Assembly: GCA_945859975.1 (NCBI GenBank)
Contig: CAMAPH010000005.1
Location: forward strand, 1 to 64,000
Reading direction: 5' to 3'
Source: Chthonomonas calidirosea
Lineage (GTDB): Bacteria; Armatimonadota; Fimbriimonadia; Fimbriimonadales; Fimbriimonadaceae
Length of the DNA: 64,000 nt
Position numbers and translations under genes: made by a program. Positions 4,597 to 31,365 of the stretch are shown here, piece by piece (within the stretch, counting starts at the first letter, position 1; each line of letters opens with the position of its first letter). The notes beneath the pieces are model-generated. The model saw only the letters and a program-made list of their open reading frames with translations. It was not told where the DNA came from and made no database searches.

Positions 4597-4638
4597 AACC
4601 TTAAGAAGTATAGCGACGATCTTGATTACAATCTGGGC

Positions 4639-6027
4639 ATGGCGAAGACGCTTTTCGACAAAGTTTGGGATCAGCACGTGGTATCGGAGCTGCCCGACGG
4701 AGGCGTTCTGCTGTACATCGACCGCCATTTGGTTCACGAAGTCACCTCGCCGCAGGCGTTTGATGGTCTTCGGGAGCACGGCCGGATGGTGCGCCGGACC
4801 GATTTAACCTTTGCCACGGTTGACCATAACGTGCCAACCGACGGCCGTCCGATTGATGAATCGACGGTGAGCGGAAAGCAGCTTGCAGCCCTGGCGCGGA
4901 ACACGCGAGAGTTCGGGATTCCGCTCTTTGGCTATAAAGAAGACCGACAGGGCATCGTTCACGTCATCGGGCCCCAGCTCGGCATCACGCTGCCGGGCCT
5001 GACCATCGTTTGCGGAGACAGCCACACGAGCACGCACGGAGCCTTTGGTGCTTTGGCGTTTGGTATTGGCACCAGCGAAGTTGAACACGTCTTGGCGACG
5101 CAGACCCTGCGAGCGCCGACGAAACCGAAGAGCCTCGGCATTCATGTAGCGGGTGCGCTTCCGACTGGGGTGACGGCGAAGGACGTCATTCTCGCTATCA
5201 TCCGAAAGCTCGGGGCAAGCGGAGGAACGGGCTACGTGGTCGAGTATCGCGGCGACACAATCGAGGCGCTCTCGATGAGCGGGCGCATGACGATTTGCAA
5301 CATGAGCATCGAAATGGGTGCCCGCGCCGGGATGATTGCGCCGGATGCGACGACGCTTGAATTCATTTCGGCGGAGGACCGTCCGTTTGCGCCGAAAGGC
5401 GCGGCGTTTGAAGCGCTTGTCGCTCAAGTCGCTGAGCTCCAATCAGATCCGGACGCGACTTTTGATCGAACGGAAGCGCTCGATGCGACCGCGCTTTCAC
5501 CACAAGTGAGTTGGGGCACAACGCCAGCCATGACGGTGGACATCAACGAGGCCGTGCCCGATCCGAAGGACGCAGCCGAGGAACGCGCGCAGCGCTATAT
5601 GGGTCTAAAGCCGGGAGTCGCAATGGCGGAGTTGGATATTAATACGGTGTTCATAGGCTCTTGCACAAACTCGCGAATAGAGGACCTTCGGGAAGCTGCC
5701 GCGTTGGTGCGTGGCCGAAAGGTGGCGTCGGGAGTGCGGGCAATGGTGGTTCCAGGAAGTGAAGCGGTGAAGAAACTGGCCGAACAAGAGGGGCTCCAAG
5801 ACGTGTTCACGGATGCGGGTTTTGAGTGGCACTTCGCCGGGTGCTCCATGTGCCTGGGCATGAACGGCGACATTCTTCGGCCAGGGGAGCGAAGCGCTTC
5901 GACCAGCAATCGACCTTACGAAGGTCGTCAGGGCCCCGGCTCGCGGACGCACTTGGTTTCGCCGATTACTGCCGCCGCGACCGCGATCAAAGGCAAGCTG
6001 GCCGATCCGCGTGAGTATTTGGGCTAG
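4639..6027 (+). CDS. leuC: 3-isopropylmalate dehydratase large subunit
   Basis: [52 protein letters not shown]. Confidence 0.97.
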
Positions 6028-22764: not shown

Positions 22765-23790
22765 GTGCACCAACTTGAATCGGAGATAAGCGCCGCACGA
22801 GAATTTCTTGCGGGTGAGCATCCGGCTCCTAGCAATGAGCTGCAAACATGTGACTGGGTGATCGTACCGATTCTTCAAGCAATAGGCTATAAACGAACTG
22901 CCATCCTTGCCCAAGGAGGGACTGAAACGGCAGGTCGGCCCGACTATCTCATTAAAGCCGAACAGCCTTGGCTCTTGGAAGCGAAAGCTTGGTCCTCACC
23001 GCTCACAGTAGAAAACGCACGTCAAGCCACCGGTTACGCTTATCAGAATTCATTTCAATGGGTGGTCTTAACGAACGGCAAGCTTTGGCATCTCTATGAT
23101 GCGTTTCAGGTTGAGTTTCAACGCCGCCTCGTGGTTGAATTCAGAATTGAGTCTCCATTGTTCAAAGATTTCGTTCTGTGCCTTTCACCCGGGAAGATCG
23201 ATATTGAAAGAATCTTGGAACTTAAATCAAGCGCAGCTGGAATCGAACTGTTAGGCAGAATCGCATCGGGCCTAGATGACGGAGTAATTCCAGTTCTACA
23301 AGCTTACGTAAAGTCAAAGTCGGGTTACGAACCTTCTCCGGCTGAAATCATCGAGCATCTTGATCTACAGAGCCAACTGAGCGCACAGTACTCAATCGTT
23401 GATGTTGCGCCAATCGGACCGTCCACGGAATCTAAGGATGGTTCGGAAGGAGTTGAAATATACATTAGTACCGATACCGTTTCGGCAAGAGGTGTGCTCC
23501 ACACTACCGGCGAAATTACGGTTCTTGCAGGCAGTAAGGGTAATGCGATTCATTCCGTGGATCATCGAACAAAGTACGTAGAATTGCGCCAAAAATACGA
23601 ACAACTTGGTGTTCTTCGAATCAGCGGAGATTCCTGCGAATTCACAACTGATTTACGCATGAAGAAGCCTAGCTCAGCTTCCCAAGTGTTATTTGGACGT
23701 TCAAGCAATGGCTGGCAAGAATGGCACGACAAGGCCGGAAATTCTATCAGCGTGTACAAGGCAAATCGCCCTAACCCAACCAGCGCTTGA
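22765..23790 (+). CDS. PD-(D/E)XK nuclease (HsdR N-terminal-like) fused to a DUF4357/RAMA-like domain
   Basis: RPDY...LLEAK, QATGYA and VLTNG..W.LY. C-terminal ITVLAGS...PSSASQVLFGRSSNGWQEW. Confidence 0.75.
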   Translation: MHQLESEISAAREFLAGEHPAPSNELQTCDWVIVPILQAIGYKRTAILAQGGTETAGRPDYLIKAEQPWLLEAKAWSSPLTVENARQATGYAYQNSFQWVVLTNGKLWHLYDAFQVEFQRRLVVEFRIESPLFKDFVLCLSPGKIDIERILELKSSAAGIELLGRIASGLDDGVIPVLQAYVKSKSGYEPSPAEIIEHLDLQSQLSAQYSIVDVAPIGPSTESKDGSEGVEIYISTDTVSARGVLHTTGEITVLAGSKGNAIHSVDHRTKYVELRQKYEQLGVLRISGDSCEFTTDLRMKKPSSASQVLFGRSSNGWQEWHDKAGNSISVYKANRPNPTSA

Positions 23791-26884: not shown

Positions 26885-27031
26885 GGCCTCATTTTACGTC
26901 TAGTACAACGGGTTGCTCGTTGAAGCTAAACTAGGGTGCTTCGTCACATTGTGATGAACATCTCGATTTGCAGACTTCGAGAGCGAGCACGGGGCCGAGA
27001 AATCGTCCTCTTGTTAGGAGAACACTTAAAC

Positions 27032-27535
27032 ATGAACAAGGCAATTTGGGCGGCAGTGGCCGCATTCGGCATCGTGGCTGGTGCCCAGGCACAAGGCTAT
27101 CCATACAACTTCACCGTGCGCGGCGGCGTTGTTTTCCCGATCGACTCGTCGTACTCGAACGTAAGCAGCACGTTCTTCGGCGTTGGCATCGATTACACCT
27201 TCACTTCGCCTCTTATCAAGGGCGGCGAGACTTACCTCTCGCTGGATTACCACGCCAAGACTTTCGGAAAGGACAAGGGATCGGTCTTCCCAATCGCCCT
27301 CAACCAGCGAATCTTCGGAAAGGCTAACTCGGAAGGAAATCGAACCTACGTATTCTTCGGCCTCGGCGCAACTGTCGTCGACTTCGCCGGATCGGAAACC
27401 GTGCTTGGCGCCCGATTCGGTGCAGGTATTGAGCTCAGCACATCCCTCATCGGCGAAGCAACGCTTTACCTCGCCGACAAGAAGAACGGCGTCCAGCCGA
27501 ACTCGTTCGGCCTGTTCCTTGGTTACAAGTTCTAA
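27032..27535 (+). CDS. Small outer-membrane beta-barrel protein
   Basis: Signal peptide ending AQA, alternating beta strands, C-terminal LGYKF, AGGAG SD. Confidence 0.8.
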   Translation: MNKAIWAAVAAFGIVAGAQAQGYPYNFTVRGGVVFPIDSSYSNVSSTFFGVGIDYTFTSPLIKGGETYLSLDYHAKTFGKDKGSVFPIALNQRIFGKANSEGNRTYVFFGLGATVVDFAGSETVLGARFGAGIELSTSLIGEATLYLADKKNGVQPNSFGLFLGYKF

Positions 27536-27544
27536 GCTAATAGC

Positions 27545-28297
27545 TTAGGCTCGTTTCCGCGCTAGCACCTGTCCGACAAGCTCGGCCAGGTGCTTTTCTT
27601 TGACCGGCCGGTTCCCATCTCGATCGAGGATGCGCACGATTGGCGGCAACTGTTGGAAGCCACCGGTTGCCGAATCAAGATCGGCCGCGATGTCGAGCAT
27701 TTCCAGCCCGTCCATCAGCACGTCGTCCAGCTCACGGCTCTCCCATGGACCCTTAACGCGGGCGATGTATTCAAACACGCCGCGGATTCGCTCCGAACCA
27801 GAGCCTGCACAGGCATAGGCTCCGTTTTCAAAGCGGGCTCCAGCTCCGTCGAAGAAGTAGACGGCGAAGTCTTCCTTCTTCTCATCATAGGCCGCGACGA
27901 TCGGAAGGAAAAGGCCGATGCCCTGCATCGCCATGGGAGCATTGCCTGCGAGGGCTCGGCTGATCTCGGCCAGCTTCCCTTCCAGCGACATCTCGTTGAG
28001 GGTCACCCGACGGTAGTACTTAAAGTTGTGCTTGAGGTACCGACAGACCTCGATGGACTTGGCAAAAGCACCCGAAATGGCCACGACCATCTTGTCATCA
28101 AGGGCGAGGACCTTTTCGGCCTTGTCGAACATGATGAGGTTTCCGGCGGTGGCGCGGCGATCCGACAGGATCAAGACGCCGCCACGGTAACGGACGGCGA
28201 GCACGGTTGTGCCGTGGACTTCGTCGTGGGTTCCCATCGGGGTCAAGGTCACCAACTCGCTAAAGTCGCGGGCTGGACCAGCAAAGGCAGTTGCCAT
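27545..28297 (-). CDS. prcB: 20S proteasome beta subunit
   Basis: 29-aa propeptide ending HG|TTVLAV (Thr1 nucleophile), DRRATAG, AEKV, GSGS, AADLDSATGG. Confidence 0.92.
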   Translation of the reverse strand: MATAFAGPARDFSELVTLTPMGTHDEVHGTTVLAVRYRGGVLILSDRRATAGNLIMFDKAEKVLALDDKMVVAISGAFAKSIEVCRYLKHNFKYYRRVTLNEMSLEGKLAEISRALAGNAPMAMQGIGLFLPIVAAYDEKKEDFAVYFFDGAGARFENGAYACAGSGSERIRGVFEYIARVKGPWESRELDDVLMDGLEMLDIAADLDSATGGFQQLPPIVRILDRDGNRPVKEKHLAELVGQVLARKRA

Positions 28298-28479
28298 TAT
28301 TCGCCTGACCGCTGGCGATATTTCTTCGCCTGATCGGGGTCGATCTTCTTCATTCGGCGCAGGAGTTCGTTTCCACCTTCCGGCTTCTGCACGTCGGGCG
28401 CACTTGGTCCAGATTCATCGCCCATCTTTCGATCTGGGCTAGGGTTCAGCGGTCTTGTGAGTCGATCTCCGTCCGTCAT
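28297..28479 (-). CDS. ubact: Prokaryotic ubiquitin-like protein UBact
   Basis: 60-aa disordered-looking protein ending LLRRMKKIDPDQAKKYRQRSGE (UBact C-terminal R[ST]G[EQ]). Lies between dop and prcB. Confidence 0.92.
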   Translation of the reverse strand: MTDGDRLTRPLNPSPDRKMGDESGPSAPDVQKPEGGNELLRRMKKIDPDQAKKYRQRSGE

Positions 28480-29933
28480 TTCATCTCTCTCATGGCTTGG
28501 ATAAACGTATTTACGTTCGCAAGCGCGTCCAGTTCCAGATTGTACGTCTGGTCAGGCCAAAGTTCCACATCTTCTTGCTGGCCGTTGACCTCAAAAGTTA
28601 GCGATCGCCAAGCGGCGGATTTCAAGTGGCTTGCAAAGTGCTGAACCGCATAGCCGCGCACCCATGCCCGCGAATGCTCCGGCTCCCAGATTGCTTCGGG
28701 GTTTGGCCCGACCAGATCCATATCCACCAGGGCTGAATGCAGGCTCTCTTCCGCGTTCAGGTTGTGATACTCCAAGTCGTAAGATCGCAAGGCGGGGTCG
28801 TTCCAGTCGGTTCCGGAATCTTGCATGTACATCTCCAGCATCTGCCGCTTGGCAGCCCAGTCGACGGCCCGGGCGAACGACGGAAAGTCGGTTCGCAGGC
28901 TTCGGAGCAGCTTTCGGCTCTCCTCGATGATGGATTGCAGCTCATCGTCTAGGTCTAGGAATCGTTCTGCGGCGGAGAAGTAGGACTCAAGGATTTCGTC
29001 GGCGGTAGTCCAACTGTCCTTGGCTAGAGGAATTTCGAAGCGGTAACCCTCATCGCGGCTGATCGACTGGAACGATCGCACCGGGTCCTTGATGTCCCAG
29101 AGCGGAGCCGCTCCGATTTCGGTGAGGGCGACAGCGAGTTTCACAAGCCCAACCTTGCGGAACGTGCTCGCTGCGATCATATTTGCATCCCCGGAAATCA
29201 CGTGGAGGCGTATGAAGTCAGTCGGGCGAGAATGCGGCTCGTCGCGGGTGTTGAAGAGCGGCCGGCGGTAAAGGGTCTCGGCGTTAGCGGGCTCGACAAT
29301 GAAGTCCGCGCGCTGGCTGATCTGATACGGCACCTTCGCACCCGTCTCGGAGCCAACTTTGCCGGAGCCGGTTAAGATTTGCCGGACGAGCAGCATGGGC
29401 ATAACACCCTTGAAAAGCTTTTCGTAGCCGACAGAACGCGAGACCAAATAGTTCTCGTGCGTCCCCCATGATGCGCCGTGGAAATCGGTGTTGTTCTTGT
29501 ACAGGGCTACTGACTTGCCAGTCTTGTCTTCGTAGGCGCGGGCAGTTTGCCGAAGAATCTCATCGCCCGCGAGTTCGTGGCCAACTAAGCCGCGTAGGGT
29601 GAAGCACTCAGGAGTGGCGTATTCCGGATGACCGTGGTCGTTATAAAATCGCCCGCCGGTGGTTAGGACACGATCCGAGCGGATTTCGACAGATGAGCCG
29701 TAGGTTCGTCCTGCATCGAACTTTGCGTCCTCGGGGTCAAAGGCAAGCGCGTCTAGGCGAAAGCCGCGCAGATCGGATCGAGGAGCTTCGTGCCGATAAT
29801 CCCAGCCGACAAACGCCGTCCCGGGAAAGGTTCGGACGAACGCTTGTGAATCTTCGATCTGGTTTTCAGCACCACGGGCCTCGACCGAGAATCCATACTC
29901 GGTATCGAGGCCCGCGAGAATTGGGCGCATCAT
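28476..29933 (-). CDS. dop: Pup/UBact ligase-deamidase family protein, Dop-type
   Basis: GLDTEYG, WDY..E.P..DLRG (Dop loop), FYNDHGHPEYATPEC, KNNTD..GASWGTHENYL, QISQRAD, NTRDEPH, RLHVISGDAN, DLEYH. Confidence 0.85.
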   Translation of the reverse strand: MMRPILAGLDTEYGFSVEARGAENQIEDSQAFVRTFPGTAFVGWDYRHEAPRSDLRGFRLDALAFDPEDAKFDAGRTYGSSVEIRSDRVLTTGGRFYNDHGHPEYATPECFTLRGLVGHELAGDEILRQTARAYEDKTGKSVALYKNNTDFHGASWGTHENYLVSRSVGYEKLFKGVMPMLLVRQILTGSGKVGSETGAKVPYQISQRADFIVEPANAETLYRRPLFNTRDEPHSRPTDFIRLHVISGDANMIAASTFRKVGLVKLAVALTEIGAAPLWDIKDPVRSFQSISRDEGYRFEIPLAKDSWTTADEILESYFSAAERFLDLDDELQSIIEESRKLLRSLRTDFPSFARAVDWAAKRQMLEMYMQDSGTDWNDPALRSYDLEYHNLNAEESLHSALVDMDLVGPNPEAIWEPEHSRAWVRGYAVQHFASHLKSAAWRSLTFEVNGQQEDVELWPDQTYNLELDALANVNTFIQAMREMK

Positions 29934-29949: not shown

Positions 29950-31365
29950 TTAGTAGCGGTAGATGACGAGAGGAACGCTAGTTGGGAAGCCAGCGATGGC
30001 GAGACCCGAAAGGGTTGCCGATCTTGCTTGCTGTACCGACACGGTGGATGCGCCGGAGCGATCCTTGATGTCGCCAACGGTGGCAAACACTTCTCCAACC
30101 TTGGAACCGGTCGGCAAGTTGCGGAGCGGATACAGTCGAACCTGTCCGGTGTTCAAGTTCTGAACGCCGTAGTACAACTGAGTGACGCGGGCCGCGGTGA
30201 CGGTGCTTCCGGTTCGCTCAAGGGTCTGTCGAATCAGAACCACGTCCTGCTCTTCATTGTCTCGGCTGCTTGGGAAGGCAATCGCCATAGCTTCTGGCAT
30301 GTTGCCAACAAGCTTATGGTGCTCCCGCCAAATTCCCTGAAGCGAGGTGATTCTCGACAGAAGGAACGGATCCGAAGGATTCACCTGAAGAAGCGAGTAG
30401 GTTCCAGGGGTCGAACCCTGAACTCCAGGGACCAGCGAAAGCTGACCAGGGAGCGAGAACTTACCGTCGATCAAGTTGTTAGCTGCCGCATCTGGATCGA
30501 GGTCGTTGCGGGTCACCGCGTTGAACTCGCCGTTCGTCTGATCTCCAGCAGGAACATCGGTGTAGCCGAGTCCACTAGCAAGAGCGTAGTTATCTCCGCT
30601 GAAGAAGACGCGGAAGGCGTCTCGTCCGGTCAACAGCTTAGGTCGGTCTGCGGATGCCATTCCTCGAAGATCGAAGGTCAGGTAGTCGCTGAGCGAGCTG
30701 GAAATTCGTGGAGAAAGATCCAATCCGTTTGCTCTCTGGAATTCAGGCTCGTTGAACTGATAGAACGAGGTGCCCGAATCGACATCAGTCTCAACCGAGA
30801 ACATGGCGTCGTTCACAAAAAGCTGTAGGTTCGAATACCGGCCCGGGAAGAGCCGAGTATTGATCGGGTAGCCCACAGATGGGATACCGCGAATGTCCGA
30901 CGACTCAAACGAGCTGTCGAACCCTTCCGAAAGGATCGAAGTAACCGAGAGCTCGTACGACTGGAACAGTCGACTGTTCAACGGCCGTCCGGTTTCTGCC
31001 TCGGTCAGGGTGGAAACGTCCGCGTTGAGGCGGAAAATCGAGTTTTGATAGCCGTTCAGCTGAAGGCGGAGCGGAGCATCCAACGGTGGGCGAACAATCG
31101 CCCCTCGTGAGTCCACGAAATCCGGCACTTCGATGCTGGCCTGCGTATCTCCAGGAGCAAACGTGCTACGGCCCTGACCCGTAAGGAACGATAGTTCCAA
31201 CTGACCCGGCTTAGACTCAAGCAGTACCCTCGGACCCGACGCAGGGACAACCCCGCCGCCTCCGCCAGCACCGCCAGAGCTAGAGCCGCCTCCAGCACCG
31301 CCACATCCTGTGGCTCCCACTACAATCGCGATAGAAAATAACGCCCAGTTCCTCAAAGCGCTCAC
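29950..31365 (-). CDS. Hypothetical lipoprotein
   Basis: Lipobox ATG|C followed by a Gly/Ser linker. Confidence 0.8.
   Translation of the reverse strand: MSALRNWALFSIAIVVGATGCGGAGGGSSSGGAGGGGGVVPASGPRVLLESKPGQLELSFLTGQGRSTFAPGDTQASIEVPDFVDSRGAIVRPPLDAPLRLQLNGYQNSIFRLNADVSTLTEAETGRPLNSRLFQSYELSVTSILSEGFDSSFESSDIRGIPSVGYPINTRLFPGRYSNLQLFVNDAMFSVETDVDSGTSFYQFNEPEFQRANGLDLSPRISSSLSDYLTFDLRGMASADRPKLLTGRDAFRVFFSGDNYALASGLGYTDVPAGDQTNGEFNAVTRNDLDPDAAANNLIDGKFSLPGQLSLVPGVQGSTPGTYSLLQVNPSDPFLLSRITSLQGIWREHHKLVGNMPEAMAIAFPSSRDNEEQDVVLIRQTLERTGSTVTAARVTQLYYGVQNLNTGQVRLYPLRNLPTGSKVGEVFATVGDIKDRSGASTVSVQQARSATLSGLAIAGFPTSVPLVIYRY

What the first reader, a model, noticed from the sequence alone, without database searches (positions are those of the whole stretch)
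27545..29933. Minimal UBact-proteasome cassette (dop-ubact-prcB) with no prcA, pafA or ATPase
Seen: three translationally coupled genes (dop/ubact overlap ATGA at 28476-28479; ubact/prcB overlap TAATG at 28297). They encode a Dop-type enzyme, a 60-aa UBact ending RQRSGE and a beta subunit with an intact HG|TT site. prcB is followed at once by a convergent OM-protein gene, and a lipoprotein gene sits upstream of dop, so the alpha subunit, ligase and AAA ATPase are not linked here. Established: Pup/UBact loci usually cluster arc/mpa, dop, tag, prcB, prcA and pafA, and to my knowledge UBact conjugation biochemistry is poorly characterised. Inference: either the system is split across the genome, or a beta-only protease works with UBact, or this one Dop-like enzyme has a changed role.
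Basis: partly seen in the sequence, partly recalled or inferred. Interest (0 to 1): 0.72.

Follow-up and report, generated by a model that had tools for sequence, protein, structure and literature searches.

The report
Split UBact-proteasome system, all genes present
These three genes are one piece of a known bacterial system predicted to tag proteins and destroy them in a proteasome; the three genes thought missing sit elsewhere in the same genome, so the cassette is ordinary, and the one odd point is that its partner ATPase lacks the tyrosine tail that known proteasome ATPases dock with.

Summary
The dop-ubact-prcB cassette is real and coupled as described. The 'missing' genes are in the same genome: pafA (contig C8), arc (C17) and a divergent prcA (C29) that a Pfam Proteasome genome search misses. 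All six genes were found in 37 of 40 relatives. Across the phylum sample, arc, prcA and prcB occur in the same 45 of 71 genomes. The same four-way split is seen in two single-contig relatives, so it is not an assembly artefact. Other Armatimonadota keep the whole operon or break it at other points. The window enzyme is an ordinary Dop orthologue (Dop-loop, catalytic residues, tree). One oddity remains, outside the window and phylum-wide: 59 of 59 ARC ATPases end in an Ile/Val tail with no GQYL/HbYX tyrosine. PrcA keeps the carboxylate-binding lysine but has lost both tyrosine partners. The scan noted this tail before on other genomes. Verdict: new member of a known, bench-untested kind; low interest.

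The parts
28476..29933 (-). dop, deamidase/de-UBactylase (Dop orthologue)
   Evidence: TIGR03688 347.8 bits > TIGR03686 249; best PDB hit Dop 4b0r E 6e-75; Dop-loop motif and D98-H99, P107, E218; groups with the 'before ubact' genes of intact operons, 100/100
28297..28479 (-). ubact, 60-aa tag ending in Gly-Glu
   Evidence: NF033388 and PF20513 above cut-off; single copy in the genome
27545..28297 (-). prcB, 20S proteasome beta subunit, 29-aa propeptide, Thr1 codon at 28210-28208
   Evidence: TIGR03690 E 1e-39; T1/D17/R19/K33/GSGS present
29950..31365 (-). predicted lipoprotein of no known family, co-oriented just upstream of dop; conserved neighbour, probably not a functional part
   Evidence: No Pfam or NCBIfam hit; upstream of dop in 18 of 18 family genomes checked; not found with this query in 16 genomes of other families
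26936..27535 (+). convergent outer-membrane beta-barrel-like gene; a neighbour, not part of the system
   Evidence: Weak PF24653 hit E 0.009; near prcB in 5 of 18 family genomes

Best explanation
This is one of four scattered pieces of a complete six-gene UBact-proteasome system in a Fimbriimonadaceae (Armatimonadota) bacterium, predicted to work like actinobacterial pupylation. Shown: all six genes (arc, dop, ubact, prcB, prcA, pafA) are intact in the genome, are kept together across the phylum, and form one operon in other Armatimonadota. Inferred from Pup biochemistry: PafA (C8) uses ATP to join UBact's C-terminal Glu to lysines of target proteins. The ARC hexamer (C17) binds the tag, unfolds the target and feeds it into an alpha7-beta7-beta7-alpha7 core built from PrcA (C29) and the window's PrcB, which autoprocesses at HG|T. 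The window's Dop removes and recycles the tag; in relatives whose UBact ends in Gln it would also deamidate it. Inferred with less support: ARC docks on the alpha ring with its short aliphatic tail through the conserved PrcA Lys48, without the tyrosine contacts of Mpa.
For: Own genome: pafA E 2e-122, arc TIGR03689 432.8 bits with both OB domains, prcA TIGR03691 E 9.6e-18; the A1 profile matches solved bacterial alpha subunits over nearly full length, E 3.7e-20, and nothing else at E<=1e-5. Relatives (40 searched): dop, ubact, prcB, prcA 39/40 each; pafA 38/40; arc 38/40 at E<=1e-80; all six in 37/40. G022 (77% complete) lacks pafA, G011 (79%) lacks arc, G026 (96%) lacks all six. Phylum: arc, prcA and prcB in the same 45 of 71 genomes. 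Single-contig G014 has arc at 0.11, prcA 0.18, pafA 1.22 and the cassette 2.43 Mb; G024 shows the same split. Intact or nearly intact operons elsewhere: dop-ubact-prcB-prcA-pafA in G025, G027, G029, G032, G035; arc first in L241, L242. Dop and PafA fall on opposite sides of a 100/100 branch by operon position. UBact ends in Q in 19 and E in 11 of 30 loci, so Dop's deamidase role is still needed in this group.
Against: No bench data: I found no paper testing UBact conjugation. All five enzymes score below their NCBIfam cut-offs, which were set on actinobacterial proteins. PafA's alpha-loop lacks the two threonines that Hecht et al. found conserved and contributing to activity. ARC lacks the GQYL motif that is required in mycobacteria, and in actinobacteria motif-less ARC goes with proteasome loss, so the ARC-to-20S step is the weakest. 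The window Dop is on a long branch (1.65) and has Asp for the first metal-binding Glu (9 of 17 family Dops).
Confidence: 0.9

Rival explanations
1. The system is complete, but ARC is uncoupled from the 20S core. UBactylation would feed ARC for unfolding or disassembly only, as in proteasome-less corynebacteria, while the 20S core degrades unfolded proteins alone or with another activator.
For: 0 of 59 ARC tails have a penultimate aromatic residue. The tail is about 8 residues shorter than Mpa's (query 549/554 aligns with Mpa 596/609). Barandun 2012 links motif-less ARC with loss of the proteasome.
Against: arc, prcA and prcB co-occur in the same 45 of 71 genomes. The pocket Lys48 is invariant (66/66 and 24/24). 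The penultimate Ile/Val is kept 59/59 although tail length varies by 5 residues. No Bpa over cut-off, and only 2 of 10,767 reading frames end in G-x-Y-aliphatic (not followed up).
Confidence: 0.2
2. PrcB acts as a beta-only protease (HslV/Anbu/BPH-like) with UBact, independent of PrcA.
For: prcB is coupled to ubact and separated from prcA in all 24 genus relatives. PrcA is divergent and sits below the Pfam cut-off (19.6 vs 22.4 bits).
Against: prcA is present in all 39 relatives and all 45 phylum genomes that have prcB. It is directly downstream of prcB in 13 of the 15 non-genus relatives that have the system. PrcB scores 136.6 on the 20S beta model and 23-30 on HslV models, and has a propeptide.
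Confidence: 0.03
3. The window's Dop-like enzyme has a changed role, acting as both ligase and hydrolase.
For: Long branch (1.65) and a Glu-to-Asp change at the first metal ligand.
Against: A separate PafA orthologue exists (C8) with the PafA-type VGSH...ATA motif and no Dop-loop. The window enzyme keeps the Dop-loop Trp/Arg, Asp98-His99, Pro107 and Glu218 in 17 of 17 family Dops.
Confidence: 0.03

Closest known systems
UBact conjugation-proteasome loci of Gram-negative phyla, including Armatimonadetes (Lehmann et al. 2017, BBRC; paper not held, so recalled only; NCBIfam NF033388, Pfam PF20513)
   Same: Same tag family and the same six genes; dop-ubact-prcB order kept; the full operon is seen in other Armatimonadota.
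   Different: In this genus the six genes lie at four loci (24 of 24 relatives have dop-ubact-prcB without adjacent prcA, pafA or arc).
Actinobacterial Pup-proteasome system (Mpa/ARC, Dop, Pup, PrcB, PrcA, PafA)
   Same: Orthologous ATPase, ligase, hydrolase and 20S subunits; catalytic residues of Dop and PrcB kept; alpha-pocket lysine kept.
   Different: Tag is UBact, not Pup (PF05639 no match); no Bpa over cut-off; ARC lacks GQYL; PrcA lacks the Arg26 and Glu119 equivalents that bind the tyrosine; PafA alpha-loop lacks the Thr-Thr pair.
Proteasome-less pupylation of Corynebacterium and allies (motif-less ARC; PMC3511204)
   Same: ARC without the C-terminal proteasome-interaction motif.
   Different: Here both 20S subunits are retained and co-occur with ARC in 45 of 45 genomes that have it.

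Membership tests
UBact conjugation-proteasome system (gene set) | UBact-family tag ending in Gly-Glu/Gln | tested here: met
   NF033388 80.6 vs 35; PF20513 79.2 vs 27.8
UBact conjugation-proteasome system (gene set) | Dop orthologue | tested here: met
   Best model TIGR03688 (below cut-off), Dop-loop and diagnostic residues, tree position
UBact conjugation-proteasome system (gene set) | Separate PafA-type ligase | tested here: met
   G000:C8:16634-18112; TIGR03686 282.7 > TIGR03688 273.7 (narrow, below cut-off; top PDB hit by sequence was Dop); PafA motif, no Dop-loop, groups with 'after prcA' genes 100/100
UBact conjugation-proteasome system (gene set) | 20S beta and alpha subunits | tested here: met
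   PrcB in window; PrcA G000:C29:20032-20700
UBact conjugation-proteasome system (gene set) | ARC/Mpa-type AAA ATPase with OB domains | tested here: met
   G000:C17:10497-12158; TIGR03689 432.8 bits (cut-off 504.75), PF17758 and PF16450 over cut-off; best PDB hit Mpa
UBact conjugation-proteasome system (gene set) | Covalent attachment of UBact to lysines and proteasomal degradation | not testable with these tools
   Needs biochemistry or proteomics
Canonical single six-gene locus (arc-dop-tag-prcB-prcA-pafA) | All six genes in one cluster | tested here: not met
   Four contigs here; four distant loci in single-contig G014 and G024. Filed as a split form, not as the canonical locus
Actinobacterial Pup-proteasome system | Pup tag (PF05639) | tested here: not met
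   No match in the genome; control rang in Corynebacterium
Actinobacterial Pup-proteasome system | C-terminal GQYL/HbYX motif on the ATPase | tested here: not met
   0 of 59 Armatimonadota ARCs have a penultimate aromatic residue
Beta-only proteases (HslV, Anbu, BPH) | No cognate alpha subunit; best match to HslV-type models | tested here: not met
   PrcA present and co-distributed; HslV models 23-30 bits vs 136.6 for 20S beta

The most novel reading that the evidence does not exclude
UBact-type proteasomes use a tyrosine-free docking code. The ARC ATPase ends in [RK]-x-[IV]-[IV] and inserts this tail into an alpha-ring pocket that keeps the carboxylate-binding lysine but has swapped the tyrosine-binding Glu for Val/Ile/Leu and lost the Arg. 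That would be an ATPase-proteasome gate-opening mode outside the HbYX/GQYL rule, shared across Armatimonadota and probably other UBact phyla. It is a property of the clade, not of this window.
Probability: 0.5. Interest if true: 0.55.

Novelty: new member of a known kind. Interest (0 to 1): 0.24.

Why it matters
As flagged it matters little: operon break-up with all genes kept is common, and the apparent absence came from the window edge plus a PrcA too divergent for the Pfam cut-off. That is a useful warning for surveys that call 'beta-only' proteasomes from Pfam hits. The system is still untested at the bench as far as my searches reach, and this family is widespread. If the aliphatic ARC tail does dock and open the gate, it would show that the HbYX tyrosine is dispensable for an ATP-dependent proteasome activator when the pocket co-evolves, and the test is simple.

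Tried and rejected
PF00227 search of the own genome found only prcB; this 'absence' of prcA was a sensitivity artefact, overturned by TIGR03691. Assembly artefact as cause of the split: rejected (C5, C8, C17 and C29 are 37-102 kb with the genes internal; single-contig G014 and G024 show the same split). Complex prediction of two PrcA copies with ARC residues 405-554: no answer, score 0.18 against a mark of 0.32, controls not folded; it says nothing either way. AlphaFold model of ARC (pLDDT 72.9) places the beta-grasp strands at 445-451, 456-460 and 534-539 and leaves 542-554 unstructured at pLDDT under 50; this fits a free tail but is too low in confidence to exclude a strand. Four metatranscriptome runs holding 5-12% of the words were laid: contigs 90-99% alike cover prcB, ubact and bits of dop, but no silent control was laid and contigs give no strand, so expression is not shown. 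Promoter/terminator scan gave counts at chance level. Atlas look-up of the lipoprotein gave no result. No new conserved partner for stand-alone prcA: an M28 peptidase gene was within 2.5 kb in 20 of 80 loci. Lehmann 2017 could not be read, so whether it or its supplement already notes the split or the ARC tail is unknown.

Full report
Observation. HMM scans name them Dop (TIGR03688 347.8 bits), UBact (above cut-off in NCBIfam and Pfam) and 20S beta (TIGR03690 136.6 bits). Named records with the closest PrcA are mostly titled Fimbriimonadaceae or Armatimonadota, so the organism is taken to belong there. The assembly G000 has 101 contigs and is 95.8% complete.

The missing genes. A genome search with Pup_ligase found a second family member on C8, TIGR03689 found an ARC on C17, and TIGR03691 found an alpha subunit on C29. 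All three are open, full-length frames of 493, 554 and 223 aa. The alpha subunit is divergent: 64.5 bits on TIGR03691 (cut-off 139) and 19.6 on PF00227 (cut-off 22.4), which is why the first Pfam search missed it. Its only significant PDB matches are bacterial 20S alpha subunits, and a 23-sequence profile aligns to them over nearly the full length.

Distribution. In 40 relatives (24 of the genus, 16 of other families of the order) dop, ubact, prcB and prcA were each found in 39, pafA in 38 and arc in 38 (E<=1e-80); all six in 37. The exceptions are G022 (77% complete, pafA not found), G011 (79%, arc not found) and G026 (96%, none found). In a phylum draw, arc, prcA and prcB were found in the same 45 of 71 genomes, own genome included. 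These genomes are kin and not independent, but no genome had prcB without prcA.

Gene order. All 24 genus relatives have dop-ubact-prcB with no adjacent prcA, pafA or arc; the closest case is prcA 9 kb from prcB in G013. Single-contig G014 and G024 have the four pieces tens of kilobases to megabases apart. Other families differ: dop-ubact-prcB-prcA-pafA in G025, G027, G029, G032, G035; pafA detached in G030, G033, G037, G039; prcB-prcA apart from dop and pafA in G028, G036, G038, G040; dop-ubact-prcB with a convergent pafA in G031, G034. Of 80 PrcA loci, 65 had no other system gene in the DNA held (some contigs are short), and L241 and L242 carry all six in order. In 21 of the 30 phylum arc loci fetched, a Dop/PafA-family gene lies within 1.5 kb. 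The simplest reading is an ancestral six-gene operon broken at different points in different lineages; I did not test the order of events on a rooted tree.

Dop versus PafA. Hecht et al. (PMC7947786, passages and Table 1 seen) list the Dop-loop, His-Ala versus Gly-Ser next to the catalytic Asp, Ser-Thr-Pro versus Ala-Thr-Ala, and the alpha-loop as discriminators. The window enzyme has the Dop-loop, Asp98-His99, Pro107 and Glu218; these and the other active-site positions read off the 4b0r alignment (their catalytic roles are partly recalled) are kept in 17 of 17 family Dops extracted from 18 regions, except the first Glu (Asp in 9) and two positions unread in one row. The C8 enzyme has VGSH...ATA and no Dop-loop, although its best PDB hit by sequence was Dop and its two HMM scores are close. 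A 15-row tree separates 'gene before ubact' from 'gene after prcA' at 100/100, with the window enzyme in the first group on a long branch and C8 in the second (no actinobacterial rows, midpoint root). UBact ends in Gln in 19 and Glu in 11 of 30 loci, so a deamidase is still needed in the group.

Mechanism. By analogy with pupylation (PMC3511204 and PMC8223512, passages): PafA ligates UBact-Glu to lysines, ARC recognises and unfolds, the alpha/beta core degrades, and Dop reverses. Gene content, motifs and co-occurrence are shown; every biochemical step is inferred.

The residual oddity. ARC ends 5 residues after the point that aligns with Mpa residue 596 of 609. In 59 of 59 Armatimonadota ARCs read (29 from relatives, own genome and near-identical G014 included, one contig-cut locus dropped; 30 from the phylum draw) the penultimate residue is Ile or Val and never aromatic, the last is Ile or Val in 55, and position -4 is Arg or Lys in 48. 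The distance from the upstream DWLxL motif to the end varies from 32 to 37, so the motif is tied to the terminus. GQYL is described as essential in mycobacteria (PMC12288473, passages). Xiao et al. (PMC9599533, abstract and two sections) place the tyrosine against alpha Arg26 or Glu119 and the carboxylate against Lys52. By the alignment these map to positions 24, 116 and 48 here. In 66 PrcAs extracted from 80 loci, Lys48 is 66/66, position 24 is Arg in 3, and position 116 is Val/Leu/Ile in 63 and never Glu. In 24 of 24 PrcAs from other families, Lys48 is 24/24, Arg24 0/24 and Val/Ile116 24/24. Of 150 representatives returned for the ARC profile I read the tails of 67, chosen by length and coverage. 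Six high-scoring ones (P0002, P0004, P0005, P0007, P0008, P0033; one cluster named Nitrospirota) also lack the tyrosine, several others end in G-x-Y-L/F, and many have no motif. So the trait is wider than this phylum and not special to this window. Barandun et al. report motif-less ARC in proteasome-less actinobacteria, which supports the rival reading that ARC is uncoupled. I found no paper on the tyrosine-free tail in seven searches of the open library, but Lehmann 2017 was not readable. I reached this point before consulting the scan's notes, two of which report it on other genomes.

Other papers touched: PMC13022661 (passages), PMC11354881 (one passing mention of UBact), PMC7203096 (no match in the part held).

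Verdict. Observation confirmed; interpretation reduced to the ordinary option. New member of a known kind, interest 0.24. Most novel open reading: tyrosine-free ARC-20S docking, probability about 0.5, interest 0.55 if true.

Noticed in passing
G000:C17:10497-12158 (L004:1354-3018) and G000:C29:20032-20700 (L010:1471-2142): ARC lacks the GQYL/HbYX tail (59 of 59 end with penultimate Ile/Val), and PrcA keeps Lys48 but has lost the Arg26 and Glu119 equivalents.
   Followed up: yes
window 29950-31365 (-): A 471-aa predicted lipoprotein of no known family lies just upstream of dop in 18 of 18 family genomes, where arc sits in the intact operon; not found with this query in 16 genomes of other families. 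Likely family-level synteny (DUF177-like gene and plsX are also nearby in 15 of 18).
   Followed up: partly
G000:C8:16634-18112 (L003:1420-2901, -): PafA alpha-loop reads HIIKTLASRVRFNR and lacks the Thr-Thr pair conserved in actinobacterial PafA; the same VRFNR form is in 5 of 5 operon PafAs checked, so substrate recognition may differ.
   Followed up: partly
L010:1471-1500: PrcA begins MxxPYDW with invariant Pro4, Asp6 and aromatic residues at 5 and 7; the N-terminus is two residues shorter than in solved actinobacterial alpha subunits, so the gate may be built differently.
   Followed up: partly
window 29909-29907 (Dop residue 9): Dop has Asp in place of the first Glu of the GhETE motif (9 of 17 family Dops) and sits on a long branch.
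   Followed up: partly
G026: A 96%-complete genome of the same order in which none of the six genes was found: whole-system loss, consistent with the genes acting as one unit.
   Followed up: no
L320 (G103:C41:5000-19000): The dop match is shorter (4601-5776) and leaves a gap of about 580 nt before ubact; no full Dop frame was extracted, so it may be broken.
   Followed up: no
window 22765-23790 (+): 341-aa ORF that by eye has a restriction-endonuclease-like N-terminus (PD...EAK) and a DUF4357-like C-terminus (labels recalled, not scanned).
   Followed up: no
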